Assembly: GCF_988242995.1 (NCBI RefSeq)
Contig: NZ_OZ547043.1
Length of the DNA: 64,000 bases
Strand: one strand, 5' to 3'
This document shows positions 15,442-30,994 of the stretch, piece by piece; positions within the stretch are counted from its first letter, which is position 1; each line of letters opens with the position of its first letter. The notes beneath the pieces are model-generated. The model did not search any database. It was not told where the DNA came from and saw nothing but the letters and a program-made list of their open reading frames with translations. A program made the position numbers and the translations under genes.

Positions 15442-17382
15442 TCAGCAACGGCTTAAATCAGCCTGCGCCTGAGCCAGTTTTTCTGCCGCCTGACGTAACG
15501 GTTCCATCAACGGCATGGTCCGTGCTGGAGCATGAAGGCGGAATCGCTGCAACTCTGTCGCACCGACAGTCAACGCCGATTCCAGCCGATGTCGTTTGGC
15601 GGCCATTTTTGCCATTACCGCTTGTCTGTCTGCAGGCGTTACCGCTTCGTTCGGCCTGAAAACAAAACGGCGTTCGCAACTCGCTTTCCAGTCGATAACC
15701 GCCTGGGTCAGATGATCACCAAAACCTTTCACTTGCTTAACGCTCCGTCGGGTAACGTCTGCCGCCGTTTCAATACCAAAGGACCGTAACGCAGCTTTAC
15801 GCGCAGGGCCAACGCCGGGAATAGAGGCAACATCAATAAAAAATCCCTCCAGAAACTTCTGCTTCTGCCGTTCCCTTGCGGTGTCCTGAAGTGCTGCCAG
15901 AGCGCGTTTCTCTTCTTCCGGTAACCCGAGCATTTCGTCCTTCATTTTTTCGAGCATCGTCCGTTTGGCGATAAAACCTTCCAGCCCGCCCAACCGTTGG
16001 ATCTGGCTGACTAAATGGTCATAGTCCATTTTCGCGCGATTAAACGCCTCACGGCGTTGCTGGATTTCTGCTTTGTACGCTTTGCTTGTCAGGCTGCCAA
16101 TAATCCAGATAGCCGCCAGCACAGGAACCAAAATAATATAACGCGGTTCTGCCTGAAGGCCGCAAAGCAACAGCGATAACGCTGACAGTGCGATCTCAAT
16201 CAGAATGATGTATTCGCGCCGTAACAGGCCTAAAGGAAGCGGCCTGCCAGTCAGTTGGAAATGATCGGGTAATGGCAGTTGCAATGCTGGCGGTGCTACT
16301 GACGCCATCACCATCGCCCAGACTTTCGCCAGCACAAAATCACCGCTGGTGGTAATGACCTCTTCGCCGAGATCAATAAAATAGATAACGCCTTGATTAT
16401 CCAGCGCACACCACGGGCAGTCAGTCAAATGACCGGGGTAAACATGCATTGCCGAAACGGTACATTTCTTTAACTGTTGGCGTAGTAAATCAAGTGCCGC
16501 AACCCACGCTTTTGCCGTCGGACGCCCGGTTGCCACGCCACTTTCCGTGAATGCCTGCTGAAACATGGTTTCAACATCGCCCGGTAACATCGACAGCGGA
16601 ATAGATCGTGGCGGCGGTTTTAAACCACGTCGCTGATTATCTGACGCGTAGGCATAACGGAAATGGGCAATATCCGTCTCCAGTGCATTACCCGCATCAG
16701 AGACAAGCGGTACACCGGAATAAGGATGCCGCCCACCAAACAAGACGTGAAAAATCAGCAACGCAAGGCCAAAATTATCGTGATTCGCGGTGCGTTCAAA
16801 GCCGACAAATGATGGCAAGGTTTGCAGCTCTGGCGGCGTAAAATGCGACACGCCGACTTCGCATAAATGCAGCGTGCCATTGGCGTTAATCTGAAAGGAG
16901 TCGCTATCAATCAACACCACTTTGCTGTCGCGACCTACCATAAAACTGTTCTGGTTTACGTCACCCACGACGTGCCCGTGCTCGTGAACCGTAGCAAAAG
17001 ATGAAGCAATATTGCGCGCAACATAGAGTAGAAAATCCCACGCACAATGAGGGTAACGTTGACGACGATGTGCCGGGCTATAGATCATATGAATCGGTTC
17101 TTTACCAGAAACTTTTGGCATCATAAAACCGATAACTTTTCCGCCTCGTCCACCGTGAAGCGTTGCCTGCGGCCAGGCGACATAATTCAACAATTGCGCG
17201 TCAGCTGTCGCAGCCATAAAGGCAAGTTTGTCCTGTTTTAAGGCGGGTGGCGGCGTGTGATAAATCTTGGCGACGCTATCGACAAACTCATTGATATCAT
17301 AAACCGCGCCTTCACCGCCTTTGCCCAGTTCACGGCCTGGCGTAACGCACTCACCAGTAGCAGTATATAAAGTGGGTTTCAT
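15442..17382 (-). CDS. yegI: Eukaryotic-like Ser/Thr protein kinase YegI
   Basis: ORF track 15442..17391; ATG at 17382 overlaps the pphC stop (ATGA); kinase-like N-terminal region, TM segment and C-terminal domain. Confidence 0.85.
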   Translation of the reverse strand: MKPTLYTATGECVTPGRELGKGGEGAVYDINEFVDSVAKIYHTPPPALKQDKLAFMAATADAQLLNYVAWPQATLHGGRGGKVIGFMMPKVSGKEPIHMIYSPAHRRQRYPHCAWDFLLYVARNIASSFATVHEHGHVVGDVNQNSFMVGRDSKVVLIDSDSFQINANGTLHLCEVGVSHFTPPELQTLPSFVGFERTANHDNFGLALLIFHVLFGGRHPYSGVPLVSDAGNALETDIAHFRYAYASDNQRRGLKPPPRSIPLSMLPGDVETMFQQAFTESGVATGRPTAKAWVAALDLLRQQLKKCTVSAMHVYPGHLTDCPWCALDNQGVIYFIDLGEEVITTSGDFVLAKVWAMVMASVAPPALQLPLPDHFQLTGRPLPLGLLRREYIILIEIALSALSLLLCGLQAEPRYIILVPVLAAIWIIGSLTSKAYKAEIQQRREAFNRAKMDYDHLVSQIQRLGGLEGFIAKRTMLEKMKDEMLGLPEEEKRALAALQDTARERQKQKFLEGFFIDVASIPGVGPARKAALRSFGIETAADVTRRSVKQVKGFGDHLTQAVIDWKASCERRFVFRPNEAVTPADRQAVMAKMAAKRHRLESALTVGATELQRFRLHAPARTMPLMEPLRQAAEKLAQAQADLSRC

Positions 17383-18140
17383 GGTAACCACAGCGCCAGT
17401 GCCAACGTTTTATCATCATCCGTACGCTCGTTTACCGCCGGGCTGGACAAAAACTGCTTTAACAATTCAGGTAATAAATCGAGTTGTTCCTGCGTTGCTG
17501 ACGCCAGTCCATTGAAAAACGGGGTAAAGAAAGGTACATGAGGAGAATTATCCAGCATATTTAACGCCAGTCGCTGGATACCATCCGTAAATGCTGCAAC
17601 TTTGTGCGCACGCCCAGTGCTGGTGAAAGTTTCCAGTCTGGAAACGGCATCTTCGTCGGTAATGAAGTGCGTCATATTGGCATATTCACCCACCATCGGC
17701 GTGAGAGGCAATTGCAGACCGTGACCCAAATCTACCACCATGCCGCCATCGCCAATCTGCATAATCAAGGTGCCGTCAGGCGATGAAATCAGTCCCAGAA
17801 ATGTACAGGCAAAATCGCGAACCGCTAATTCTTTGGCTTCCGCCTCGGCAAAAAGTCGTTGACGAATGGTCAGCACAATATCCGTGGCGAGGACATCATT
17901 AAGCCCCAATTCCCCGCCCTGCACTTTTTGCGACATATAAGCCATCGCTTCATTGACGGCGAGCATCGCGCCTTCGCCACCCTGCGAGACACTGCCTGCG
18001 CCATCAGCGACAAATACCGACAATAATGGCTGCTGGTCATTTAACCAGGCAACCTGCATCTGGCAGGCATCCTGGCAAGGCAAGTCCGCGCTGATGTGCG
18101 ACGTTCCAACGGTTGATGCATAGACCAGACGCCAGCTCAC
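17379..18140 (-). CDS. pphC: PP2C-family protein phosphatase PphC (YegK)
   Basis: 253-aa ORF; PP2C-like acidic motifs ([12 protein letters not shown]); translationally coupled to yegI and yegL. Confidence 0.85.
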
Positions 18141-18796
18141 ACTGACGTCCAGCCTTTTGGCGCTTCCAGCACAACTTCCGTTCCCGGCGTGGAGCGGGAA
18201 ACCGAACGCAGCGAACTGGATAACCAGCTAAACAGTTCACGGAATTGTAATCCCTGCAGTGGCAAAGGCTGACGAACGCTGATTTGTGCCAGCGTCTTCA
18301 TATCCGCCCCCTGTACACCAATGGTAAAGAAGGCAAACTTCTTATCTTCTTCCCCCTGAAACACTTTGTTGGCGGCAGCCTGCCACTCATCGGTTGGAGC
18401 GCCATCGGTGATCAGGAAAATCCACGGGCGATAATAGGAAATACCATTTGCACGATACTCACGTTTCCGCTCCTCTACCATATCCAGGGCTTTGGTAATG
18501 GCAGCGCCCATTGGTGTATCGCCCTGGGCAAACAGGATGGGCGGGAAAAAATTAGCGGCGCTGGTAAAGGGTTGTTCCACATGCACCGGGCCGAACGTCA
18601 CAATGCCGAGTTCCACTCTTTTTAAGGCTAGCGAATCGGCAAGCAGTTCATCGCGAAAGGTAACCAATCCGGCGTTAAGTTCATTAATAGGTCTACCACT
18701 CATCGAACCAGAAACATCCAACAGCAAAATGCAGGGGCAACGTGGTTCCGGGTTACTGGCAAAATCGCTGGTGGCAAACGTGATTTGTTCGCTCAT
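18137..18796 (-). CDS. yegL: von Willebrand factor A domain protein YegL
   Basis: 219-aa ORF with vWA MIDAS-type motif (DVSGSMSG); first gene of the yegL-pphC-yegI operon. Confidence 0.85.
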
Positions 18797-18979
18797 AAGA
18801 AATCCTTTCTTAGAGAATTATCGAGGTCCGGTATCATACCGATTGCAATAATGAAATAAGAGCAAACGAAGAAACTTTCAGAATTAGGCCCGGCGGCGCA
18901 GAAAATTTTGCTATTCGCCTCGCAAGAACGGAGAGCCGTCGATTGACACTAAGGGCGGAGTGACATAATTTCAGGAGTG

Positions 18980-19126
18980 AGGGTTAGGGAGAGGTTTCCC
19001 CCTCCCCCTGGTGTTCTTAGTAAGCCTGGAAGCTAATCACTAAGAGTATCACCAGTATGATGACGTGCTTCATCATAACCCTTTCCTTATTAAAAGCCCT
19101 CTTCTCCGGGAGAGGGTTTCCCGTTT
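18980..19126 (+). ncRNA. sibA: Sib antitoxin sRNA, copy 1 (antisense to ibs copy 1)
   Basis: Sigma70-like promoter TTGACA (18943-18948), 17-bp spacer, TAATTT (18966-18971); intrinsic terminator hairpin CCCTCTTCTCCGGGAGAGGG plus T-tract ending ~19126; fully overlaps ibs on the opposite strand. Ends are approximate. Confidence 0.6.
19017..19076 (-). CDS. ibsA: Type I toxin Ibs, copy 1 (MMKHVIILVILLVISFQAY)
   Basis: 19-codon ORF on the minus strand encoding a hydrophobic Ibs-family peptide; embedded in the first ~330-bp tandem unit. Confidence 0.75.
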   Translation of the reverse strand: MMKHVIILVILLVISFQAY

Positions 19127-19312
19127 CAGCGTCCCGCTGAAATCGTCGGCTTACCTCCTTTCGCCCTGAATGCAGTCTATCGCTAACGCGTGAACAAAAT
19201 AGTTTCCTCTGTGATTATTGCGTAACGACTCGCAAAGAATATTTGCTGGCAGGATCGCAGACTGCAAAGCCTGCGGATTGACAATCTTATCGTGAAGGCA
19301 TAATTTCAGGAG

Positions 19313-19454
19313 TGAGGGTAGAGCGGGGTTTCCCCCGCCCTGGTAGTCTTAGTAAGCGGGGAAGCTTATGACTAAGAGCACCACGATGATGAGTAGCTTC
19401 ATCATGACCCTTTCCTTATTTAAGGCCCCTTCCTCGGGAGGGGCTTTCCCGTTT
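19313..19454 (+). ncRNA. sibB: Sib antitoxin sRNA, copy 2
   Basis: Promoter TTGACA (19278-19283), 17-bp spacer, TAATTT (19301-19306); terminator hairpin GGCCCCTTCCTCGGGAGGGGC plus T-tract ending ~19454. Ends are approximate. Confidence 0.6.
19349..19405 (-). CDS. ibsB: Type I toxin Ibs, copy 2 (MMKLLIIVVLLVISFPAY)
   Basis: 18-codon minus-strand ORF; Ibs-family hydrophobic peptide within the second tandem unit. Confidence 0.75.
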   Translation of the reverse strand: MMKLLIIVVLLVISFPAY

Positions 19455-19640
19455 CAGCGTCCCGCTGAAATCGTCGACTTACCTCCTTTCGCCCTGTATG
19501 CAGTCTATCGCTGACTTGCGGATAAAATAGTTTCCAGTGTGATTATTGCGTAACGTCTCGCAAAGAATATTTGCTGGCAGGATCGCAGACTGCAAAGCCT
19601 GCAGATTGACAATCTTATCGTGAAGGCATACTTTCAGGAG

Positions 19641-19782
19641 TGAGGGTAGAGCGGGGTTTCCCCCGCCCTGGTAGTCTTAGTATGCTGGGTAGCTAATCAC
19701 TAAGAGCACCACGATGATGATCCACTTCATCATGACCCTTTCCTTATTTAAGGCCCCTTCCTCGGGAGGGGCTTTCCCGTTT
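19641..19782 (+). ncRNA. Sib antitoxin sRNA, copy 3
   Basis: Promoter TTGACA (19606-19611), 17-bp spacer, TACTTT (19629-19634); terminator hairpin plus T-tract ending ~19782. Ends are approximate. Confidence 0.55.
19677..19733 (-). CDS. Type I toxin Ibs, copy 3 (MMKWIIIVVLLVISYPAY)
   Basis: 18-codon minus-strand ORF, paralogous to copies 1 and 2, within the third tandem unit. Confidence 0.7.
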   Translation of the reverse strand: MMKWIIIVVLLVISYPAY

Positions 19783-19940
19783 CAGCGTCCCGCTGAAATC
19801 GTCGGCTTACCTCCTTTCGCCATGCAAGCAGTCTATCGCTAACGCGTAGATAAAATAGTTTCATGTGTTATTACTGGATGCGTGCTCGCAAATGTGCCCG
19901 TCATTCAGACGATTCCCGACAGTGTTTCATAATTCCTCCA

Positions 19941-19958
19941 TTTTTCTCCCTTATTGGC
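19941..19958 (+). promoter_or_regulatory. BaeR box upstream of mdtA (TTTTTCTCCCTTATTGGC)
   Basis: Near match to the BaeR binding consensus TTTTTCTCCATDATTGGC, about 55-70 bp upstream of the mdtA start. Confidence 0.6.
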
Positions 19959-20011
19959 TGGCTACACTAGTATCATTCCGCGAAACGTTTCAGGAAGAGA
20001 AACTCTTAACG

Positions 20012-21259
20012 ATGAAAGGCAGTTATAAATCCCGTTGGGTAATCGTAATCGTGGTGGTTATCGCCGCCATCGCCGCATTCTGGTTCTGGCAAGGCCGCAA
20101 TGACTCCCGGAGTGCAGCCCCAGGGGCGACGAAACAAGCGCAGCAATCGCCAGCGGGTGGTCGCCGTGGTATGCGTTCCGGCCCATTAGCCCCGGTTCAG
20201 GCGGCGACCGCCGTAGAACAGGCTGTTCCGCGTTACCTCACCGGGCTTGGCACCATTACCGCCGCTAATACTGTTACGGTGCGCAGCCGCGTGGACGGTC
20301 AACTGATGGCGTTACATTTCCAGGAAGGCCAGCAGGTCAAAGCAGGCGATTTACTGGCAGAAATTGACCCCAGCCAGTTCAAAGTTGCATTAGCACAAGC
20401 CCAGGGCCAACTGGCAAAAGATAAAGCCACGCTTGCCAACGCCCGCCGTGACCTGGCGCGTTATCAGCAACTGGCAAAAACCAATCTCGTATCTCGTCAG
20501 GAACTGGATGCCCAACAAGCGCTGGTCAGTGAAACCGAAGGCACCATTAAGGCTGATGAAGCAAGCGTCGCCAGCGCGCAGCTGCAACTCGACTGGAGCC
20601 GCATCACCGCACCAGTCGATGGTCGCGTTGGTCTCAAGCAGGTTGATGTTGGTAACCAAATCTCCAGTGGTGATACCACCGGGATTGTGGTGATCACCCA
20701 GACGCATCCTATCGATTTGCTCTTTACCCTGCCGGAAAGCGATATCGCTACCGTAGTACAGGCGCAAAAAGCCGGAAAACCGCTGGTTGTTGAAGCCTGG
20801 GATCGCACCAACTCGAAGAAATTAAGTGAAGGCACGCTGTTAAGTCTCGATAACCAAATCGATGCCACTACCGGTACGATTAAAGTGAAAGCACGCTTTA
20901 ATAATCAGGATGATGCGCTGTTTCCCAATCAGTTTGTTAACGCGCGTATGTTAGTCGACACCGAACAAAACGCCGTGGTGATCCCCACCGCCGCTCTGCA
21001 AATGGGCAACGAAGGCCATTTTGTCTGGGTGCTGAATAGCGAAAACAAGGTCAGCAAACATCTGGTGACGCCGGGCATTCAGGACAGTCAGAAAGTGGTG
21101 ATCCGCGCAGGTATTTCTGCGGGCGACCGCGTAGTGACAGACGGCATTGATCGCCTGACCGAAGGGGCGAAAGTGGAAGTAGTGGAAGCCCAGAGCGCCA
21201 CCACTCCGGAAGAGAAAGCCACCAGCCGCGAATACGCGAAAAAAGGAGCACGCTCCTGA
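20012..21259 (+). CDS. mdtA: RND efflux membrane-fusion protein MdtA
   Basis: ORF track 19865..21259; start set to ATG 20012 ([19 protein letters not shown]...), giving 415 aa. Confidence 0.9.
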
Positions 21260-24200
21260 TGCAGGTGTTACCCCCGAGCAGCACAGGCGGCCCGTCGCGC
21301 CTGTTTATTATGCGTCCTGTCGCCACCACGCTGCTGATGGTGGCGATCTTACTCGCCGGGATTATCGGTTATCGCGCCCTGCCCGTTTCGGCGCTGCCGG
21401 AAGTGGACTATCCGACCATTCAGGTAGTCACGCTCTACCCAGGTGCGAGCCCGGATGTCATGACCTCTGCCGTTACCGCGCCGCTTGAACGCCAGTTTGG
21501 GCAGATGTCTGGCCTGAAACAGATGTCGTCGCAAAGTTCCGGCGGTGCGTCAGTTATCACCTTACAGTTCCAGCTAACATTACCGCTCGATGTCGCCGAG
21601 CAGGAAGTGCAGGCCGCGATTAACGCTGCGACCAACTTGTTGCCGAGCGATCTGCCTAACCCGCCGGTTTACAGCAAAGTGAACCCGGCAGATCCACCAA
21701 TCATGACGCTCGCCGTCACCTCAACCGCCATGCCAATGACGCAAGTGGAAGATATGGTGGAAACCCGCGTCGCGCAGAAAATCTCGCAGATTTCCGGTGT
21801 CGGCCTGGTGACGCTTTCCGGCGGCCAGCGTCCGGCTGTTCGCGTCAAACTTAACGCTCAGGCGATTGCCGCCCTCGGCCTGACCAGCGAAACCGTACGC
21901 ACCGCTATTACCGGCGCTAACGTTAACTCGGCAAAAGGTAGCCTCGACGGCCCTTCCCGTGCGGTCACACTTTCCGCGAACGACCAGATGCAATCCGCCG
22001 AAGAGTATCGCCAGCTGATCATCGCCTACCAGAACGGCGCGCCGATTCGTCTGGGCGATGTCGCAACCGTAGAGCAAGGTGCAGAAAACAGCTGGCTCGG
22101 CGCATGGGCGAATAAAGAACAGGCCATTGTGATGAATGTTCAGCGCCAGCCCGGTGCTAACATTATCTCCACCGCCGACAGCATCCGGCAGATGCTGCCA
22201 CAGCTCACCGAGAGTCTGCCGAAATCGGTGAAGGTGACGGTACTTTCTGACCGTACCACCAATATCCGCGCATCCGTCGATGATACCCAGTTTGAACTGA
22301 TGATGGCTATCGCGCTGGTAGTCATGATTATCTACCTGTTTTTGCGCAATATTCCGGCGACCATCATTCCTGGCGTCGCAGTGCCGCTGTCGTTAATTGG
22401 CACCTTTGCGGTTATGGTGTTTCTCGATTTTTCAATCAATAACCTGACGCTGATGGCGTTAACTATCGCCACCGGATTCGTGGTCGATGACGCCATCGTG
22501 GTGATCGAGAACATTTCGCGCTATATCGAAAAAGGCGAAAAACCGCTGGCGGCGGCGCTCAAAGGCGCAGGTGAAATCGGCTTTACCATTATCTCGCTGA
22601 CCTTCTCACTGATTGCAGTGTTGATCCCACTGCTATTTATGGGCGATATCGTCGGGCGACTGTTCCGCGAATTTGCAATTACTCTGGCAGTCGCGATTTT
22701 GATCTCAGCCGTGGTGTCGCTGACCCTGACACCGATGATGTGTGCGCGGATGCTCAGCCAGGAGTCGCTGCGTAAACAGAACCGCTTCTCCCGTGCCTCG
22801 GAAAAAATGTTCGACAGGATAATCGCCGCCTATGGTCAGGGACTTGCGAAAGTGCTGAATCATCCGTGGCTGACCTTAAGCGTGGCGCTCAGCACGCTGC
22901 TGCTTAGCGTGCTGTTGTGGGTGTTCATTCCGAAAGGTTTCTTCCCGGTACAGGACAACGGCATTATTCAGGGCACTTTGCAGGCACCGCAATCCAGCTC
23001 CTTTACCAATATGGCCCAGCGGCAACGCCAGGTCGCGGATGTGATTTTGCAAGATCCGGCGGTGCAAAGTCTGACCTCATTTGTTGGCGTTGATGGCACT
23101 AACCCGTCGCTGAACAGTGCGCGTTTGCAGATCAACCTCAAACCGTTGGATGAACGTGATGATCGGGTGCAAAAAGTCATCGCCCGTCTGCAAACGGCGG
23201 TGGATAAAGTGCCGGGCGTCGATCTCTTCCTGCAACCAACGCAGGACCTGACCATCGATACTCAGGTCAGCCGCACCCAGTACCAGTTTACCTTGCAGGC
23301 CACGTCACTGGATGCGCTCAGTACCTGGGTGCCACAGTTGATGGAAAAACTCCAGCAACTGCCACAGCTTTCTGATGTCTCCAGCGACTGGCAGGACAAA
23401 GGGCTGGTGGCGTATGTCAATGTTGATCGCGACAGCGCCAGCCGTCTGGGGATCAGCATGGCGGACGTCGATAACGCCCTGTACAACGCGTTTGGTCAGC
23501 GACTGATTTCCACTATTTATACTCAGGCCAACCAGTATCGCGTGGTGCTGGAGCACAACACCGAAAATACTCCTGGGCTTGCGGCGCTGGATACTATTCG
23601 CCTGACCAGCAGCGACGGCGGCGTGGTGCCGCTAAGCTCAATTGCCAAAATTGAGCAGCGTTTTGCGCCGCTTTCCATCAACCATCTGGATCAGTTCCCG
23701 GTAACGACCATCTCCTTTAACGTGCCGGATAACTATTCGCTGGGCGATGCGGTGCAGGCGATTATGGACACCGAAAAGACGCTGAATCTGCCGGTGGATA
23801 TCACCACGCAGTTCCAGGGCAGCACCCTCGCCTTCCAGTCGGCGTTGGGCAGCACTGTCTGGCTGATTGTCGCGGCGGTGGTGGCGATGTATATCGTGCT
23901 CGGCATTCTGTACGAGAGCTTTATTCACCCGATCACCATTCTCTCGACGCTACCCACCGCAGGGGTCGGCGCACTGCTGGCGTTACTGATTGCCGGTAGC
24001 GAGCTGGATGTGATTGCGATTATCGGCATTATTTTGCTGATCGGTATCGTGAAGAAGAACGCCATCATGATGATCGACTTCGCGCTGGCTGCTGAGCGCG
24101 AGCAAGGCATGTCGCCGCGCGAGGCAATCTACCAGGCTTGTCTGTTACGTTTTCGTCCGATCCTGATGACCACTCTGGCGGCTCTGCTTGGCGCGCTGCC

Positions 24201-24381
24201 GCTGATGTTGAGTACCGGGGTCGGCGCGGAACTGCGTCGTCCGTTAGGTATCGGCATGGTCGGCGGTCTGATTGTCAGCCAGGTGCTGACGCTGTTCACC
24301 ACGCCGGTGATTTATCTGCTGTTCGACCGCCTGGCATTGTGGACCAAAAGTCGCTTTGCTCGCCATGAAGAGGAGGCGTAA
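21259..24381 (+). CDS. mdtB: RND multidrug efflux transporter MdtB
   Basis: 1040-aa ORF; 12-TM RND architecture; start overlaps the mdtA stop. Confidence 0.9.
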
Positions 24382-27300
24382 GTGAAGTTTTTTGCCCTCT
24401 TCATTTACCGCCCGGTGGCGACGATTTTACTGTCGGTCGCCATTACCCTGTGCGGCATACTGGGCTTCCGTATGCTGCCGGTCGCCCCACTGCCGCAGGT
24501 CGATTTTCCGGTGATTATGGTCAGCGCCTCGCTGCCCGGTGCGTCACCAGAAACAATGGCGTCTTCCGTTGCCACGCCGCTGGAACGTTCGCTTGGGCGC
24601 ATTGCCGGGGTTAGTGAAATGACCTCCAGCAGTTCGCTCGGCAGCACGCGCATTATTTTGCAGTTTGATTTTGACCGCGATATCAACGGCGCAGCGCGCG
24701 ATGTGCAAGCGGCGATCAACGCCGCGCAAAGTTTGCTGCCCAGCGGGATGCCAAGCCGTCCGACCTATCGCAAAGCGAACCCGTCGGATGCGCCAATAAT
24801 GATCCTGACGCTGACGTCCGATACTTATTCGCAGGGTGAACTGTACGATTTCGCCTCGACGCAGTTGGCTCCGACGATTTCGCAAATCGACGGTGTCGGT
24901 GATGTCGATGTTGGCGGCAGCTCGCTGCCCGCCGTACGCGTCGGGCTGAATCCGCAGGCGCTGTTTAATCAGGGCGTGTCGCTGGACGATGTGCGCAGCG
25001 CCATCAGCAATGCCAACGTGCGTAAACCGCAGGGGGCGCTGGAAGATAGCACTCACCGCTGGCAGATCCAGACCAACGATGAGCTAAAAACCGCCGCTGA
25101 ATATCAGCCGTTGATTATTCATTACAACAACGGCGGCGCGGTTCGTCTGGGCGATGTGGCGACGGTGACCGACTCGGTGCAGGATGTGCGCAACGCCGGG
25201 ATGACCAACGCCAAACCGGCTATTTTGCTGATGATCCGCAAGCTGCCGGAAGCCAATATTATCCAGACGGTTGACAGCATCCGGGCAAAATTACCGGAGT
25301 TGCAGGAGACCATTCCGGCGGCGATTGATCTGCAAATTGCCCAGGATCGCTCCCCCACTATTCGCGCCTCGCTGGAGGAAGTAGAGCAAACGCTGATTAT
25401 CTCGGTGGCGCTGGTCATTCTGGTGGTCTTTTTATTCCTGCGCTCGGGTCGCGCCACTATTATTCCCGCCGTTGCGGTGCCGGTTTCGCTGATTGGTACG
25501 TTTGCGGCGATGTACCTGTGCGGTTTCAGTCTCAATAACCTGTCGTTAATGGCGCTCACTATTGCTACTGGTTTCGTGGTGGATGACGCCATCGTGGTGC
25601 TGGAAAACATTGCCCGTCACCTGGAAGCGGGGATGAAACCACTACAGGCCGCACTGCAAGGTACTCGCGAAGTCGGTTTTACGGTGCTGTCGATGAGTCT
25701 GTCACTAGTGGCGGTGTTCCTGCCGCTGCTGTTGATGGGCGGATTGCCGGGCCGACTGTTACGCGAATTTGCCGTGACGCTTTCTGTTGCCATTGGGATT
25801 TCGTTGCTGGTTTCCCTGACGCTAACGCCGATGATGTGCGGCTGGATGCTAAAAGCCAGCAAGCCGCGCGAGCAAAAGCGACTGCGTGGTTTTGGTCGCA
25901 TGTTGGTAGCCCTGCAACAAGGCTATGGCAAGTCGCTGAAATGGGTGCTCAATCATACCCGTCTGGTGGGCGTGGTGCTGCTTGGCACCATTGCGCTGAA
26001 TATCTGGCTATATATCTCGATCCCGAAAACCTTCTTCCCGGAGCAGGACACCGGCGTGTTGATGGGCGGGATACAGGCGGATCAGAGTATTTCGTTTCAG
26101 GCGATGCGCGGTAAGTTGCAGGATTTTATGAAAATTATCCGTGACGATCCGGCGGTGGATAATGTCACCGGCTTTACCGGCGGTTCGCGGGTGAACAGTG
26201 GGATGATGTTTATCACCCTCAAGCCACGCGACGAACGCAGCGAAACGGCGCAGCAAATTATCGACCGTCTGCGCGTAAAACTGGCGAAAGAACCGGGGGC
26301 GAATCTGTTCCTGATGGCGGTACAGGATATTCGCGTTGGCGGACGTCAGTCGAACGCCAGTTACCAGTACACGTTGTTATCCGACGACCTGGCGGCACTG
26401 CGCGAATGGGAGCCGAAAATCCGCAAAAAACTGGCAACGTTGCCGGAACTGGCGGACGTGAACTCCGATCAGCAGGATAACGGCGCGGAGATGAATCTGG
26501 TTTACGACCGCGACACCATGGCGCGGCTGGGAATCGACGTGCAGGCCGCCAACAGCCTGTTAAATAACGCCTTCGGTCAGCGGCAAATCTCGACCATTTA
26601 CCAGCCGATGAACCAGTACAAAGTGGTGATGGAAGTGGATCCGCGCTATACCCAGGACATCAGCGCGCTGGAAAAAATGTTCGTTATCAATAACGAAGGA
26701 AAAGCGATCCCGCTGTCGTATTTCGCTAAATGGCAACCGGCGAATGCTCCGCTGTCGGTGAATCATCAGGGATTATCGGCGGCCTCGACCATTTCGTTTA
26801 ACCTGCCGACCGGGAAATCGCTCTCGGACGCCAGTGCGGCGATCGATCGCGCAATGACCCAGCTTGGTGTGCCTTCGACGGTGCGCGGTAGTTTTGCCGG
26901 CACGGCGCAGGTGTTCCAGGAGACGATGAACTCGCAGGTGATCCTGATTATCGCCGCCATCGCCACGGTGTATATCGTGCTGGGTATCCTTTACGAGAGT
27001 TACGTACATCCGCTGACGATTCTCTCCACCCTGCCCTCGGCGGGCGTTGGAGCGCTGTTGGCGCTGGAGCTGTTCAATGCCCCGTTCAGCCTAATCGCCC
27101 TGATAGGGATCATGCTATTAATCGGCATCGTGAAGAAAAACGCCATTATGATGGTCGATTTTGCGCTTGAAGCCCAACGGCACGGTAACCTGACGCCGCA
27201 GGAAGCTATTTTCCAGGCCTGTCTGCTGCGTTTTCGCCCGATTATGATGACTACCCTGGCGGCGCTGTTTGGTGCGCTGCCGCTGGTATTGTCGGGCGGT

Positions 27301-27459
27301 GACGGCTCGGAGTTGCGGCAACCATTGGGGATCACCATTGTCGGCGGTCTGGTCATGAGCCAGCTTCTGACGCTGTATACCACGCCGGTGGTGTATCTCT
27401 TTTTCGACCGTCTGCGGCTGCGTTTTTCGCGTAAACCTAAACAAGCGGTAACCGAGTAA
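24382..27459 (+). CDS. mdtC: RND multidrug efflux transporter MdtC
   Basis: 1025-aa ORF paralogous to MdtB; contiguous with mdtB. Confidence 0.9.
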
Positions 27460-28875
27460 ATGACAGATCTTCCCGACAGCACCCGCTGGCAATTGTGGAT
27501 TGTGGCTTTCGGCTTCTTTATGCAGTCGCTGGACACCACCATCGTTAACACCGCGCTTCCCTCAATGGCGCAAAGCCTCGGGGAAAGTCCGTTGCATATG
27601 CACATGGTCATTGTCTCTTATGTACTGACCGTGGCGGTGATGTTGCCTGCCAGCGGCTGGCTGGCGGACAAAGTCGGCGTACGCAATATTTTCTTTACCG
27701 CCATCGTGCTGTTTACTCTCGGTTCACTGTTTTGCGCGCTTTCCGGCACGCTGAACGAACTGTTGCTGGCACGCGCGTTACAGGGCGTTGGCGGTGCGAT
27801 GATGGTGCCGGTCGGCAGATTGACGGTGATGAAAATCGTACCGCGCGAGCAATATATGGCGGCGATGACCTTTGTCACACTGCCCGGTCAGGTCGGTCCG
27901 CTGCTGGGTCCGGCGCTCGGCGGTCTGCTGGTGGAGTACGCATCGTGGCACTGGATCTTTTTGATCAACATTCCGGTGGGGATTATCGGTGCGATCGCAA
28001 CACTAATGTTGATGCCGAACTACACCATGCAGACGCGGCGCTTCGATCTCTCCGGCTTTTTATTGCTGGCGGTTGGTATGGCGGTATTAACCCTGGCGCT
28101 GGACGGCAGTAAAGGTACAGGTTTATCGCCGCTGGCGATTGCTGGCCTGGTCGCAGTTGGCGTGGTAGCACTGGTGCTTTATTTGCTGCACGCCAGAAAT
28201 AACAACCGCGCCCTGTTCAGTCTGAAACTGTTCCGCACTCGTACCTTTTCGCTGGGCCTGGCGGGGAGTTTTGCCGGACGTATCGGTAGCGGCATGTTGC
28301 CCTTTATGACGCCGGTTTTCCTGCAAATTGGCCTTGGCTTCTCACCGTTTCATGCCGGACTGATGATGATCCCGATGGTGCTTGGCAGCATGGGGATGAA
28401 GCGAATTGTTGTACAGGTGGTGAATCGCTTTGGTTATCGTCGGGTGCTGGTGGCGACCACGCTGGGTCTGTCGCTGGTCACCCTGTTGTTTATGACCACC
28501 GCGCTGCTGGGCTGGTACTACGTTTTACCGTTCGTCCTGTTTTTACAAGGAATGGTCAACTCAACGCGTTTCTCCTCCATGAACACCCTGACGCTGAAAG
28601 ATCTCCCGGACAATCTGGCGAGCAGCGGAAACAGCCTGCTGTCGATGATTATGCAATTGTCGATGAGTATCGGCGTCACCATCGCCGGGCTGTTGCTGGG
28701 GCTTTTTGGTTCGCAGCATGTCAGCGTCGACAGCGGCACCACACAAACCGTCTTTATGTACACCTGGCTTAGCATGGCGTTTATCATCGCCCTTCCGGCG
28801 TTCATCTTTGCCAGAGTGCCGAACGATACGCATCAAAATGTAGCTATTTCGCGGCGAAAAAGGAGCGCGCAATGA
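27460..28875 (+). CDS. mdtD: MFS transporter MdtD
   Basis: 471-aa ORF, highly hydrophobic, MFS-like; part of the mdtABCD-baeSR operon. Confidence 0.9.
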
Positions 28876-30275
28876 AGTTCTGGCGACCCGGTATTACCGG
28901 CAAACTGTTTCTGGCGATTTTCGCCACCTGCATTGTCTTGCTGATCAGTATGCACTGGGCGGTGCGTATCAGTTTTGAGCGTGGCTTTATTGATTACATC
29001 AAGCATGGTAATGAACAGCGATTACAACTGTTAAGTGATGCGCTTGGCGAGCAGTATGCGCAGCATGGCAACTGGCGCTTCCTGCGCAACAATGATCGCT
29101 TTGTCTTTCAGATCCTGCGTTCATTTGAACACGAAAATTCGGAAGATAAACCCGGCCCGGGTATGCCGCCGCACGGCTGGCGTACCCAGTTCTGGGTGGT
29201 TGATCAAAACAACAAAGTGCTGGTTGGTCCGCGAGCGCCGATTCCACCTGACGGTACACGGCGACCCATTCTGGTCAACGGTGCGGAAGTGGGTGCGGTG
29301 ATTGCCTCCCCTGTTGAGCGACTGACCCGCAATACTGATATCAATTTCGATAAACAACAGCGGCAAACCAGCTGGCTGATTGTCGCCCTGGCTACGTTAC
29401 TCGCGGCACTCGCCACCTTTCTGCTGGCGCGTGGTCTGTTGGCCCCGGTCAAACGGCTGGTGGACGGCACGCACAAACTGGCGGCGGGCGATTTCACTAC
29501 CCGCGTGACACCCACCAGTGAAGATGAACTGGGCAAACTGGCGCAAGACTTCAACCAGCTTGCCAGCACGCTGGAGAAAAACCAGCAAATGCGGCGCGAT
29601 TTTATGGCCGATATTTCTCACGAACTGCGTACGCCATTAGCGGTGCTGCGCGGTGAACTGGAAGCCATTCAGGATGGCGTGCGTAAATTCACGCCGGAGA
29701 CGGTGGCGTCTTTACAGGCGGAGGTCGGTACACTGACCAAACTGGTTGACGATCTCCATCAGTTGTCGATGTCTGATGAAGGCGCTCTCGCCTATCAAAA
29801 AGCACCGGTAGATTTGATCCCACTGCTGGAAGTAGCGGGCGGCGCATTTCGCGAACGATTCGCCAGCCGTGGCCTGAAACTGCAATTTTCCCTGCCAGAC
29901 AGTATTACCGTATTTGGCGATCGCGACCGTTTAATGCAGTTATTCAATAACTTACTGGAAAACAGCCTGCGCTACACTGACAGCGGCGGTAGCCTGAAAA
30001 TCTCTGCCGAGCAGCACGACAAAACGGTGCGACTGACCTTTGCCGACAGCGCGCCGGGCGTCAGTGACGATCAGCTACAAAAATTGTTTGAACGTTTTTA
30101 TCGCACCGAAGGTTCCCGCAACCGAGCCAGCGGCGGTTCCGGGCTGGGGCTGGCGATTTGCCTGAACATTGTTGAAGCACATAATGGTCGCATTATTGCT
30201 GCCCATTCGCCTTTTGGCGGGGTAAGCATTACAGTAGAGTTACCGCTGGAACGGGATTTACAGAGAGAAGTATGA
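28872..30275 (+). CDS. baeS: Envelope-stress sensor histidine kinase BaeS
   Basis: 467-aa ORF; HAMP region, H-box ([11 protein letters not shown]), C-terminal ATP-binding G-boxes. Confidence 0.9.
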
Positions 30276-30994
30276 CCGAGTTACCAATCGACGAGAACAC
30301 ACCGCGTATTTTGATCGTGGAAGATGAACCAAAGCTGGGGCAGTTGCTCATTGATTATCTGCGTGCTGCGAGCTATGCGCCGACGCTTATCAGCCACGGC
30401 GATCAGGTACTGCCGTATGTGCGCCAGACACCACCGGATCTGATCCTGCTGGATCTGATGCTCCCTGGCACCGATGGCCTGACGCTGTGCCGGGAAATTC
30501 GTCGTTTTTCTGACATTCCGATCGTGATGGTGACAGCAAAAATCGAAGAGATCGACCGCCTGCTGGGGCTGGAAATTGGCGCTGATGACTACATCTGCAA
30601 ACCGTACAGCCCACGGGAAGTGGTAGCGCGCGTCAAAACCATTTTGCGCCGTTGCAAACCGCAGCGTGAGTTGCAGCAACAGGATGCTGAAAGCCCGTTG
30701 ATTATCGACGAAGGTCGTTTTCAGGCTTCCTGGCGCGGAAAAATGCTTGACCTGACGCCTGCGGAATTTCGTCTGTTGAAAACGCTCTCTCATGAACCAG
30801 GAAAAGTGTTCTCCCGCGAGCAATTGCTCAATCATCTTTATGACGACTACCGCGTAGTAACCGACCGCACCATCGACAGCCACATTAAAAACCTGCGTCG
30901 CAAGCTGGAATCTCTCGACGCCGAACAGTCCTTTATCCGTGCCGTTTACGGCGTCGGTTACCGCTGGGAAGCCGACGCCTGCCGCATCGTTTAA
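30272..30994 (+). CDS. baeR: OmpR-family response regulator BaeR
   Basis: 240-aa ORF; receiver domain (ILIVEDEP...LDLMLPG) plus winged-helix output domain. Confidence 0.9.

What the first reader, a model, noticed from the sequence alone, without database searches (positions are those of the whole stretch)
19930..20011. Near-consensus BaeR box upstream of mdtA
TTTTTCTCCCTTATTGGC (19941..19958) closely matches the BaeR recognition sequence as I recall it, consistent with autoregulation of mdtABCD-baeSR. It lies only ~160 bp downstream of the third Sib terminator, so read-through from the sib unit into the mdt promoter region is conceivable.
Basis: partly seen in the sequence, partly recalled or inferred. 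Interest (0 to 1): 0.2.

Follow-up and report, generated by a model that had tools for sequence, protein, structure and literature searches.

The report
Known BaeR site at mdtA promoter
This is the ordinary, already-described binding site through which the stress regulator BaeR switches on the mdtABCD-baeSR drug-efflux operon of E. coli; it is identical to the site in the K-12 lab strain, so it is real but not new.

Summary
TTTTTCTCCCTTATTGGC lies at 19941-19958, 53 nt before the mdtA start codon (20012). It differs at one position from the published BaeR consensus TTTTTCTCCATDATTGGC. No shuffled window gives a match that close.

It is not new. E. coli K-12 has the same 18-mer, and the surrounding 40-mer is 100% identical in 5293 of 5412 E. 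coli records. The K-12 spy, acrD and mdtA 18-mers together reproduce the consensus, including its degenerate 'D'. So the "close match" is partly circular. A published K-12 BaeR ChIP-exo peak maps to window 19927-19963 and contains the box. Deleting baeR lowers the downstream genes mdtA-baeS about 10-25-fold under ethanol stress.

One refinement came from 79 Enterobacteriaceae species. The box's own CTCCC core (19/79) and ATTGGC tail (4/79) are specific to Escherichia and Citrobacter. The site is best read as tandem half-sites 10-11 bp apart, as expected for an OmpR/PhoB-type regulator.

The Sib read-through idea has no supporting evidence. K-12 has the same 164-nt spacing behind sibB, and three ibs/sib units are a common polymorphism. 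Low interest.

The parts
19941..19958 (+). This is the published-type BaeR box of the mdtA promoter.
   Evidence: one mismatch to the consensus, unique in the window, 0/100 shuffles. Identical in K-12 at 2153945-2153962.
19935..19943 (+). Upstream half-site H2, CCTCCATTT, with core CTCCA at 19936-19940. This is the element conserved across Enterobacteriaceae.
   Evidence: CTCCA is present in 74/79 species and CTNCA in 78/79, always 35 nt before the -10 hexamer. It matches the CTNCA core described in PMC3799227.
19945..19953 (+). Downstream half-site H3, TCTCCCTTA, which is the core of the 18-mer. It lies 10 bp from H2.
   Evidence: 5 of 7 specified positions match TCTNCANAA. The CTCCC core is present in only 19/79 species, all Escherichia or Citrobacter.
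19924..19932 (+). Candidate third half-site H1, GTTTCATAA, 11 bp upstream of H2.
   Evidence: 5 of 7 specified positions match TCTNCANAA. It is part of the near-invariant block 19925-19945. BaeR occupancy is inferred, not shown.
19927..19963 (.). Window equivalent of K-12 BaeR ChIP-exo peak_5 (2153931-2153967, S/N 10.96).
   Evidence: PMC7657598 Data Set S2. Coordinate mapping and sequence identity were checked.
19968..19994 (.). Window equivalent of K-12 BaeR ChIP-exo peak_6 (2153972-2153998, S/N 14.99). This is the core promoter and start region, and the signal probably reflects co-crosslinked RNA polymerase.
   Evidence: The RNA polymerase reading is an inference.
19971..19976 (+). Predicted -10 hexamer TATCAT, inside the invariant block CTA(C/A)ACTAGTATCATT at 19962-19977. 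No conserved -35 is present.
   Evidence: TATCAT is present in 69/79 species and lies in a conserved block. The transcription start, predicted near 19983, has not been mapped.
20012..21259 (+). mdtA, the first gene of the regulated operon.
   Evidence: ORF. NCBIfam NF008589 MdtA equivalog, 722.9 bits.
21259..28875 (+). mdtB, mdtC and mdtD, contiguous or overlapping with one another.
   Evidence: Annotation of the strain whose 18700-20100 segment is identical.
28872..30994 (+). baeS (28872-30275) and baeR (30272-30994). These encode the sensor kinase and the regulator that binds the box, closing the autoregulatory loop.
   Evidence: BaeR matches equivalog NF007982 at 450.5 bits.
19642..19777 (+). 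Sib RNA of the third ibs/sib unit, placed by homology to the K-12 sibB annotation. It runs in the same direction as mdtA. The terminator hairpin is at 19750-19775.

Best explanation
The region is the BaeR-dependent promoter of the mdtABCD-baeSR operon, and the 18-mer is its published BaeR box. Envelope stress (indole, metals, ethanol and similar) activates the kinase BaeS, which phosphorylates BaeR. [quoted passage not shown] In E. coli these are most likely H2 (CCTCCATTT, 19935-19943) and H3 (TCTCCCTTA, 19945-19953). They lie just upstream of a promoter that has a good -10 (TATCAT, 19971-19976) but no -35. BaeR recruits RNA polymerase to this promoter. Because baeS and baeR are the last genes of the same transcript, the site gives positive autoregulation. 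Shown here or in cited data: the sequence, its identity to K-12, in vivo BaeR occupancy in K-12, BaeR-dependent expression in K-12, the operon layout, and the conservation pattern. Inferred: the half-site assignment, the position of the transcription start, and the contact with RNA polymerase.
For: The sequence is present and is not a chance match. It is identical to K-12 across the whole mdtA promoter. Only two substitutions, at 19863 and 19917, separate the window from K-12 in the 237 nt from just after the last Sib 3' end through the ATG (19778-20014). The 40-mer 19924-19963 is 100% identical and single-copy in 5293 of 5412 E. coli records. K-12 BaeR ChIP-exo peak_5 maps to 19927-19963. It extends 8 nt beyond H2+H3 (19935-19955) on each side. 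Deleting baeR under 5% ethanol gives mdtA log2FC -4.0, mdtB -3.8, mdtC -3.6, mdtD/iceT -3.4 and baeS -4.6, with no effect on mdtA when unstimulated. The literature lists the mdt-bae operon among the four reported BaeR sites (PMC2731931) and calls the mdtA site 'well characterised' (PMC3160322). [quoted passage not shown] It is reported to bind as a dimer (PMC11644481). The CTCC cores at 19936 and 19946 are 10 bp apart. The distance from CTCCA to the -10 is fixed in 79 species even though the intervening sequence varies. The operon genes abut or overlap.
Against: I could not read any in vitro footprint for mdtA, because Baranova & Nikaido 2002 and Nishino 2005 are not in the held library. No transcription start is available for the induced promoter. 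An uninduced TSS data set has none there (PMC3415461 supplement). The 3' two-thirds of the 18-mer is not conserved outside Escherichia and Citrobacter, yet K. pneumoniae mdtA is still activated by a baeS mutation (PMC13059784). The 18-mer as written therefore cannot be the whole or universal recognition element. At spy, the perfect 18-mer (K-12 1825764-1825781) lies under neither called ChIP-exo peak (1825677-1825711 and 1825823-1825843). All experimental evidence comes from K-12, not from this strain.
Confidence: 0.9

Rival explanations
1. The functionally essential and ancestral BaeR site is the upstream pair H1+H2 (19924-19945). On this reading the reader's 18-mer (H3 plus ATTGGC) is a lineage-specific auxiliary half-site, or merely the spacer that stands where a -35 would be.
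For: The block 19925-19945 is near-invariant in 79 species, while identity at 19946-19958 is 0.41-0.78, about the level of the unconstrained flank. Counts are CTCCA 74/79, CTCCC 19/79 and ATTGGC 4/79. In distant genera the best consensus match lies 62-63 nt before the ATG rather than 53 nt. Klebsiella lacks H3, yet its mdtA responds to BaeS activation.
Against: The left edge of the K-12 ChIP-exo peak (19927) cuts into H1, and the peak is centred on H2+H3. In E. coli, spy, acrD and mdtA all share TTTTTCTCC-N3-ATTGGC, which suggests the downstream element matters in this species. Conservation of 19925-19933 could have another cause, such as the CATAAT -10-like hexamer.
Confidence: 0.3
2. Transcription reading through the terminator of the last Sib RNA enters the mdtA promoter region and contributes to mdt-bae expression or modulates it.
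For: Sib and mdtA are on the same strand. The Sib terminator hairpin is followed by an interrupted U-tract, CUUUCCCGUUUC. Basal mdtA expression is BaeR-independent in unstimulated K-12. Sib lies directly upstream of mdtA at the same spacing in Citrobacter, Pseudocitrobacter and Kluyvera.
Against: There are no data showing such transcripts. The geometry is the same in K-12 behind sibB, so nothing is special about the third unit. A strong 11-bp hairpin and a second 8-bp hairpin (19780-19798) stand in the way. The convergent ibs promoter fires in the opposite direction, with a start near 19823 (converted from the PMC3415461 supplement). Enterobacter, Klebsiella and Raoultella keep the conserved mdtA promoter without any sib. 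Copy number ranges from 1 to 4 among E. coli strains.
Confidence: 0.08
3. The match is a chance resemblance with no regulatory role.
For: At up to 3 mismatches, 21 of 100 shuffles give a match.
Against: At the observed 1 mismatch, 0 of 100 shuffles match. The position and orientation in front of a BaeR-dependent operon are right. The site is occupied in vivo in K-12. It is conserved in about 98% of E. coli records.
Confidence: 0.01

Closest known systems
BaeR box of the E. coli K-12 mdtA (yegM) promoter; consensus TTTTTCTCCATDATTGGC of Nishino et al. 2005
   Same: The sequence is identical to K-12, with the same 53-nt distance to the mdtA ATG and the same operon downstream. It lies within the K-12 BaeR ChIP-exo peak.
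   Different: Nothing differs in the site itself. This strain has three ibs/sib units upstream instead of two, and two substitutions further upstream at 19863 and 19917.
BaeR half-site direct repeat TCTNCANAA (Yamamoto et al. 2008, defined at spy) and the CTNCA core (Guerrero et al. 2013, PMC3799227)
   Same: The site has tandem half-sites with 10-11 bp periodicity. CTCCA at 19936-19940 fits CTNCA exactly. The spy distal site TCTTCATAATC/TCTGCAAAATC has the same architecture and lies under a ChIP-exo peak.
   Different: The mdtA half-sites are degenerate: H1 5/7, H2 4/7 and H3 5/7 of the specified positions. The A-rich 3' part (NAA) is replaced by T-rich sequence in H2 (and direct reading).
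Pho box / PhoB-activated promoters (OmpR/PhoB family, activator site in place of a -35)
   Same: Both have two 7-bp direct repeats separated by about 4 bp of A/T-rich spacer, just upstream of a -10, with no recognisable -35. BaeR scores next-best to the CreB and PhoB models. The comparison rests on established knowledge of the family plus sequence reading.
   Different: The repeat sequence differs (TCTCCAT-like versus CTGTCAT). The gap between the box and the -10 is 12-15 bp here rather than about 10 bp. The regulator and the signal are different. The start site has not been mapped, so the positions are only predicted.

Membership tests
BaeR box (18-mer consensus TTTTTCTCCATDATTGGC) | Sequence match to the consensus | tested here: met
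   17 of 18 positions match. It is unique in the window, and 0 of 100 shuffles match at up to 1 mismatch.
BaeR box (18-mer consensus TTTTTCTCCATDATTGGC) | Lies upstream of, and co-oriented with, a BaeR-regulated transcription unit | tested here: met
   It ends 53 nt before mdtA, with mdtABCD-baeSR contiguous downstream.
BaeR box (18-mer consensus TTTTTCTCCATDATTGGC) | Occupied by BaeR in vivo | tested here: met
   This rests on published K-12 data only. ChIP-exo peak_5 (2153931-2153967) contains the identical sequence. It was not measured in this strain.
BaeR box (18-mer consensus TTTTTCTCCATDATTGGC) | Downstream genes depend on BaeR for induction | tested here: met
   Published K-12 RNA-seq shows that deleting baeR lowers mdtA through baeS by log2 3.4-4.6 under ethanol. 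Reporter data from Salmonella agree. This strain was not tested.
BaeR box (18-mer consensus TTTTTCTCCATDATTGGC) | Direct in vitro binding or footprint on this sequence | not testable with these tools
   The primary papers (PMC135214, PMC1063996, PMC3133272) are not held. Secondary sources state that the site is reported and well characterised.
BaeR box (18-mer consensus TTTTTCTCCATDATTGGC) | Conservation of the whole 18-mer in orthologous promoters | tested here: not met
   Only TTTTT(C) and the upstream CTCCA are conserved across Enterobacteriaceae. CTCCC occurs in 19/79 species and ATTGGC in 4/79. This weakens the 18-mer as a universal motif. It does not weaken the identification of the E. 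coli site.
OmpR/PhoB-type tandem direct-repeat response-regulator site | Two or more similar half-sites in direct orientation at about one helical turn | tested here: met
   CTCCA at 19936 and CTCCC at 19946 are 10 bp apart. TTCAT at 19926 is 11 bp upstream.
OmpR/PhoB-type tandem direct-repeat response-regulator site | Cognate regulator has an OmpR/PhoB winged-helix output domain | tested here: met
   The baeR product matches BaeR equivalog NF007982. The next-best models are CreB, PhoB and OmpR.
OmpR/PhoB-type tandem direct-repeat response-regulator site | Fixed phasing relative to the core promoter | tested here: met
   The distance from CTCCA to TATCAT is invariant (35 nt) in 78 of 79 species, despite variable intervening sequence. 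The transcription start itself is not mapped.
Sib/Ibs type I toxin-antitoxin unit (upstream neighbour) | Match to Rfam SIB_RNA with an antisense ibs ORF | tested here: met
   There are three matches at 139-150 bits against a gathering score of 56. Three Ibs CDSs are annotated in a strain whose 18700-20100 segment is 100% identical.

The most novel reading that the evidence does not exclude
The most novel reading not excluded is that the published 18-mer BaeR consensus is largely an E. coli-specific artefact of three or four founding sites. On this reading the true ancestral determinant at mdtA is the invariant TTTCATAATTCCTCCATTTTT block (19925-19945), held exactly 35 nt from the -10. BaeR regulon predictions based on the 18-mer in other Enterobacteriaceae would then be systematically misplaced by one helical turn. 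A less likely addition is that the co-oriented, copy-number-variable sib units upstream feed read-through transcription into the operon.
Probability: 0.25. Interest if true: 0.25.

Novelty: already known. Interest (0 to 1): 0.07.

Why it matters
The finding matters little as a discovery. It re-identifies a textbook regulatory site: BaeSR control of the MdtABC efflux pump and its own synthesis. The site is unchanged from K-12 and present in about 98% of E. coli genomes. Its use is as a positive control, since it shows the first-stage reader can recognise a real operator from sequence alone. The comparative result has modest practical value for anyone predicting BaeR regulons outside E. coli. 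In other genera the conserved core lies 10 bp upstream of the canonical box, and most of the 18-mer is not conserved.

Tried and rejected
(1) I tried to read the primary papers for the mapped site and transcription start (Baranova & Nikaido 2002, PMC135214; Nishino 2005, PMC1063996; Leblanc 2011, PMC3133272). None is held.

(2) I looked for a genome-wide TSS at the mdtA promoter. Conway 2014 has no held supplements. The Kim 2012 supplement lists no start at the promoter. It only has a 5' end inside sibA, 646 nt upstream, assigned to mdtA by proximity. That is uninformative, because the cells were not induced.

(3) I scanned for a CpxR box (GTAAA-N5-GTAAA, up to 2 mismatches). Nothing falls between 19780 and 20011. 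The nearest hits (19222, 19550) lie in the sib repeat junctions.

(4) The generic promoter scan returned only TTCAGA-18-CATAAT at 19904-19933. That count is no more than the shuffled expectation (1 found, 1.4 expected). I rejected it as the BaeR-activated promoter, because BaeR would then bind downstream of the start.

(5) I searched the K-12 ycaC region for the fourth reported site. No match appeared at up to 4 mismatches.

(6) I tested a small 5'-UTR hairpin (19995-20007) for covariation. It is supported only between Escherichia and Citrobacter and is absent in other genera, so I dropped it.

(7) A chance match was rejected.

Full report
**What is in the window**

The window is E. coli chromosome. 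Around the finding the order is pphC, yegL (minus strand), three tandem ibs/sib type I toxin-antitoxin units, then mdtA-mdtB-mdtC-mdtD-baeS-baeR on the plus strand. The segment 18700-20100 is 100% identical to E. coli O158:H23 strain CFIAFB20140388, whose annotation names these genes. The mdtA product matches the NCBIfam MdtA equivalog at 722.9 bits. The product of 30272-30994 matches the BaeR equivalog at 450.5 bits.

**Checking the observation**

- TTTTTCTCCCTTATTGGC lies exactly at 19941-19958 and ends 53 nt before the mdtA ATG at 20012.
- The published BaeR consensus is TTTTTCTCCATDATTGGC (Nishino et al. 2005), as quoted in PMC3799227, PMC3915751 and PMC11644481. The window sequence differs only at position 10.
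- It is the only match in the 64 kb at up to 3 mismatches.
- At up to 1 mismatch, none of 100 dinucleotide-preserving shuffles produced a match.
- The distance from the last Sib 3' end (by K-12 sibB homology, window 19777) to the box is 164 nt.

**Is it known?**

Yes.

- K-12 MG1655 carries the identical 18-mer at 2153945-2153962.
- Between the last Sib 3' end and the mdtA ATG, the window differs from K-12 at only two positions, 19863 and 19917. Neither is in the BaeR region.
- The 40-mer 19924-19963 is single-copy and 100% identical in 5293 of 5412 matching E. coli records.
- The three K-12 18-mers are spy TTTTTCTCCATAATTGGC, acrD TTTTTCTCCACGATTGGC and mdtA TTTTTCTCCCTTATTGGC. Together they reproduce the consensus. 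Position 12 is A, G and T respectively, which is exactly the 'D'. The mdtA site therefore helped define the consensus, and its near-match is partly circular.
[quoted passage not shown] PMC3160322 calls the mdtA site well characterised.

They do not. BaeR ChIP-exo in MG1655 (PMC7657598, Data Set S2) gives two peaks upstream of mdtA.

- Peak_5 (2153931-2153967, S/N 10.96) maps to window 19927-19963, sequence TCATAATTCCTCCATTTTTCTCCCTTATTGGCTGGCT. It contains the whole box.
- Peak_6 (2153972-2153998, S/N 14.99) maps to 19968-19994, sequence TAGTATCATTCCGCGAAACGTTTCAGG. This covers the -10 and start region.

The same study reports that deleting baeR under 5% ethanol lowers mdtA, mdtB, mdtC, iceT/mdtD and baeS by log2 3.4-4.6. 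Unstimulated mdtA is unchanged. In the window the six genes abut or overlap (mdtA/B share a base, and mdtD/baeS and baeS/baeR overlap by 4 nt), so one transcript is expected. Positive autoregulation from this promoter is therefore well supported for K-12. It can be transferred to this strain because the sequences are identical.

**Anatomy and mechanism**

BaeR belongs to the OmpR/PhoB family and is reported to bind as a dimer (PMC11644481). Regulators of this family bind direct repeats about one helical turn apart (established family knowledge). Read this way, the region holds three half-sites related to TCTNCANAA / CTNCA (consensus forms quoted):

| Half-site | Sequence | Coordinates | Note |
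|---|---|---|---|
| H1 | GTTTCATAA | 19924-19932 | 11 bp upstream of H2 |
| H2 | CCTCCATTT | 19935-19943 | core CTCCA at 19936-19940 |
| H3 | TCTCCCTTA | 19945-19953 | core CTCCC at 19946-19950; 10 bp from H2 |

These assignments come and direct reading.

- The spy distal site TCTTCATAATC/TCTGCAAAATC has the same architecture and lies under spy ChIP-exo peak_2.
- ChIP-exo peak_5 extends 8 nt beyond H2+H3 (19935-19955) on each side. The most likely occupied pair in E. coli is therefore H2+H3 (inference).
- Downstream is an invariant block CTA(C/A)ACTAGTATCATT containing a good -10 (TATCAT, 19971-19976). No conserved -35 sits at the expected position, 19948-19953.
- This is the layout of an activator-dependent promoter of the Pho-box type. 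The start is predicted near 19983. It has not been mapped.

**The comparative refinement**

I fetched mdtA loci from 80 species of Enterobacteriaceae and aligned the 130 nt upstream (79 unique sequences).

- The near-invariant blocks are 19925-19945 (TTTCATAATTCCTCCATTTTT), 19962-19977 (the -10 block) and 19988-20000 (TTTCAGGAnGAGA).
- Counted in fixed register from the -10: CTCCA is present in 74/79 species and CTNCA in 78/79. CTCCC is present in 19/79, all Escherichia or Citrobacter. ATTGGC is present in 4/79.
- The spacing between CTCCA and the -10 never varies, although the sequence between them does.
- In distant genera the best match to the 18-mer consensus shifts to 62-63 nt before the ATG, which places it on H2.
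- K. pneumoniae lacks H3, yet its mdtA is induced by an activating baeS mutation (PMC13059784; alignment).

The finding's range (19930-20011) contains the conserved core. A caveat on the consensus itself: at spy the perfect 18-mer (1825764-1825781) lies under neither called ChIP-exo peak.

**The read-through suggestion**

- Sib and mdtA are co-oriented.
- The Sib terminator is a strong 11-bp hairpin (19750-19775) followed by an interrupted U-tract. A second 8-bp hairpin follows at 19780-19798.
- The geometry is the same as behind sibB in K-12, so the 'third' unit adds nothing particular.
- In a spread sample of 60 E. coli records, the yegL-mdtA interval holds 1, 2, 3 or 4 units, with 2 and 3 about equally common. 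Earlier work already noted seven ibs genes in O157:H7 Sakai (PMC2887945).
- A sib unit directly upstream of mdtA at the same spacing also occurs in Citrobacter, Pseudocitrobacter and Kluyvera. It does not occur in Enterobacter, Klebsiella or Raoultella, which nevertheless keep the conserved mdtA promoter from about 19903 onward.
- I found no transcript data either way. The idea remains conceivable and unsupported.

**Verdict**

The feature is real and correctly interpreted, and it is already known. Interest is low. The only added value is the conservation result, which places the conserved core one helical turn upstream of the canonical box.

Noticed in passing
window 18943-19777 (three units, period 328 nt): There are three tandem ibs/sib type I toxin-antitoxin units between yegL and mdtA, where K-12 has two (sibA, sibB). 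Among E. coli genomes the interval holds 1 to 4 units, and 3 is about as common as 2 in a spread sample of 60 records. This is a common copy-number polymorphism.
   Followed up: partly
window 19904-19923: A moderately to strongly conserved element, TTCAGACgATTCCaGACAGT, is shared across 79 Enterobacteriaceae species. It reads as a tandem ATTC(C)AGAC repeat, or GTCTG-N5-GTCTG on the minus strand. It lies upstream of the BaeR half-sites and is present even in genera without sib. It overlaps a -35-like TTCAGA paired with CATAAT (19928-19933). Its binding factor is unknown, and no CpxR-type GTAAA repeat is found here.
   Followed up: partly
window 19988-20000: TTTCAGGAnGAGA is invariant in the predicted mdtA 5' UTR. 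Its AGGA lies 16 nt before the ATG, which is unusually far for a Shine-Dalgarno sequence. A small hairpin (AAGAG-AAA-CTCTT, 19995-20007) could shorten the effective distance. It shows compensatory changes in Citrobacter (ATGAG/CTCAT) but is absent in other genera.
   Followed up: partly
L082 (K-12 spy upstream), positions 265-282 and 324-344: The perfect-consensus 18-mer at spy (K-12 1825764-1825781) lies under neither published BaeR ChIP-exo peak. The peaks cover the distal TCTTCATAATC/TCTGCAAAATC direct repeat and the core promoter. This suggests the 18-mer consensus is not the best descriptor of in vivo BaeR sites.
   Followed up: partly
L007, L010, L012, L013 (Citrobacter), L039 (Pseudocitrobacter), L065 (Kluyvera), positions about 791-962: A SIB_RNA match lies directly upstream of mdtA, co-oriented and at the same spacing as in E. 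coli (about 264 nt from the end of the Rfam match to the ATG). Enterobacter, Klebsiella, Raoultella, Atlantibacter and others lack it.
   Followed up: partly
window 19780-19798: A perfect 8-bp inverted repeat, TTTCAGCG-TCC-CGCTGAAA, lies immediately after each Sib terminator hairpin. It is repeated in every unit. Its role is unknown; it could be a second terminator or the 5' structure of the antisense ibs mRNA.
   Followed up: no
K-12 2151394 (old NC_000913.2 coordinates), inside sibA: The Kim et al. 2012 TSS table assigns a 5' end inside sibA, 646 nt upstream, to mdtA by proximity. It lists no start at the real mdtA promoter, which fits a promoter that is silent without BaeR activation.
   Followed up: no
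window 17379-18796 (minus strand): pphC (a PP2C-type phosphatase) and yegL (a vWA-domain protein) lie immediately upstream, with the kinase yegI beyond them. This is a eukaryote-like kinase/phosphatase/vWA cluster and is unrelated to the finding.
   Followed up: no
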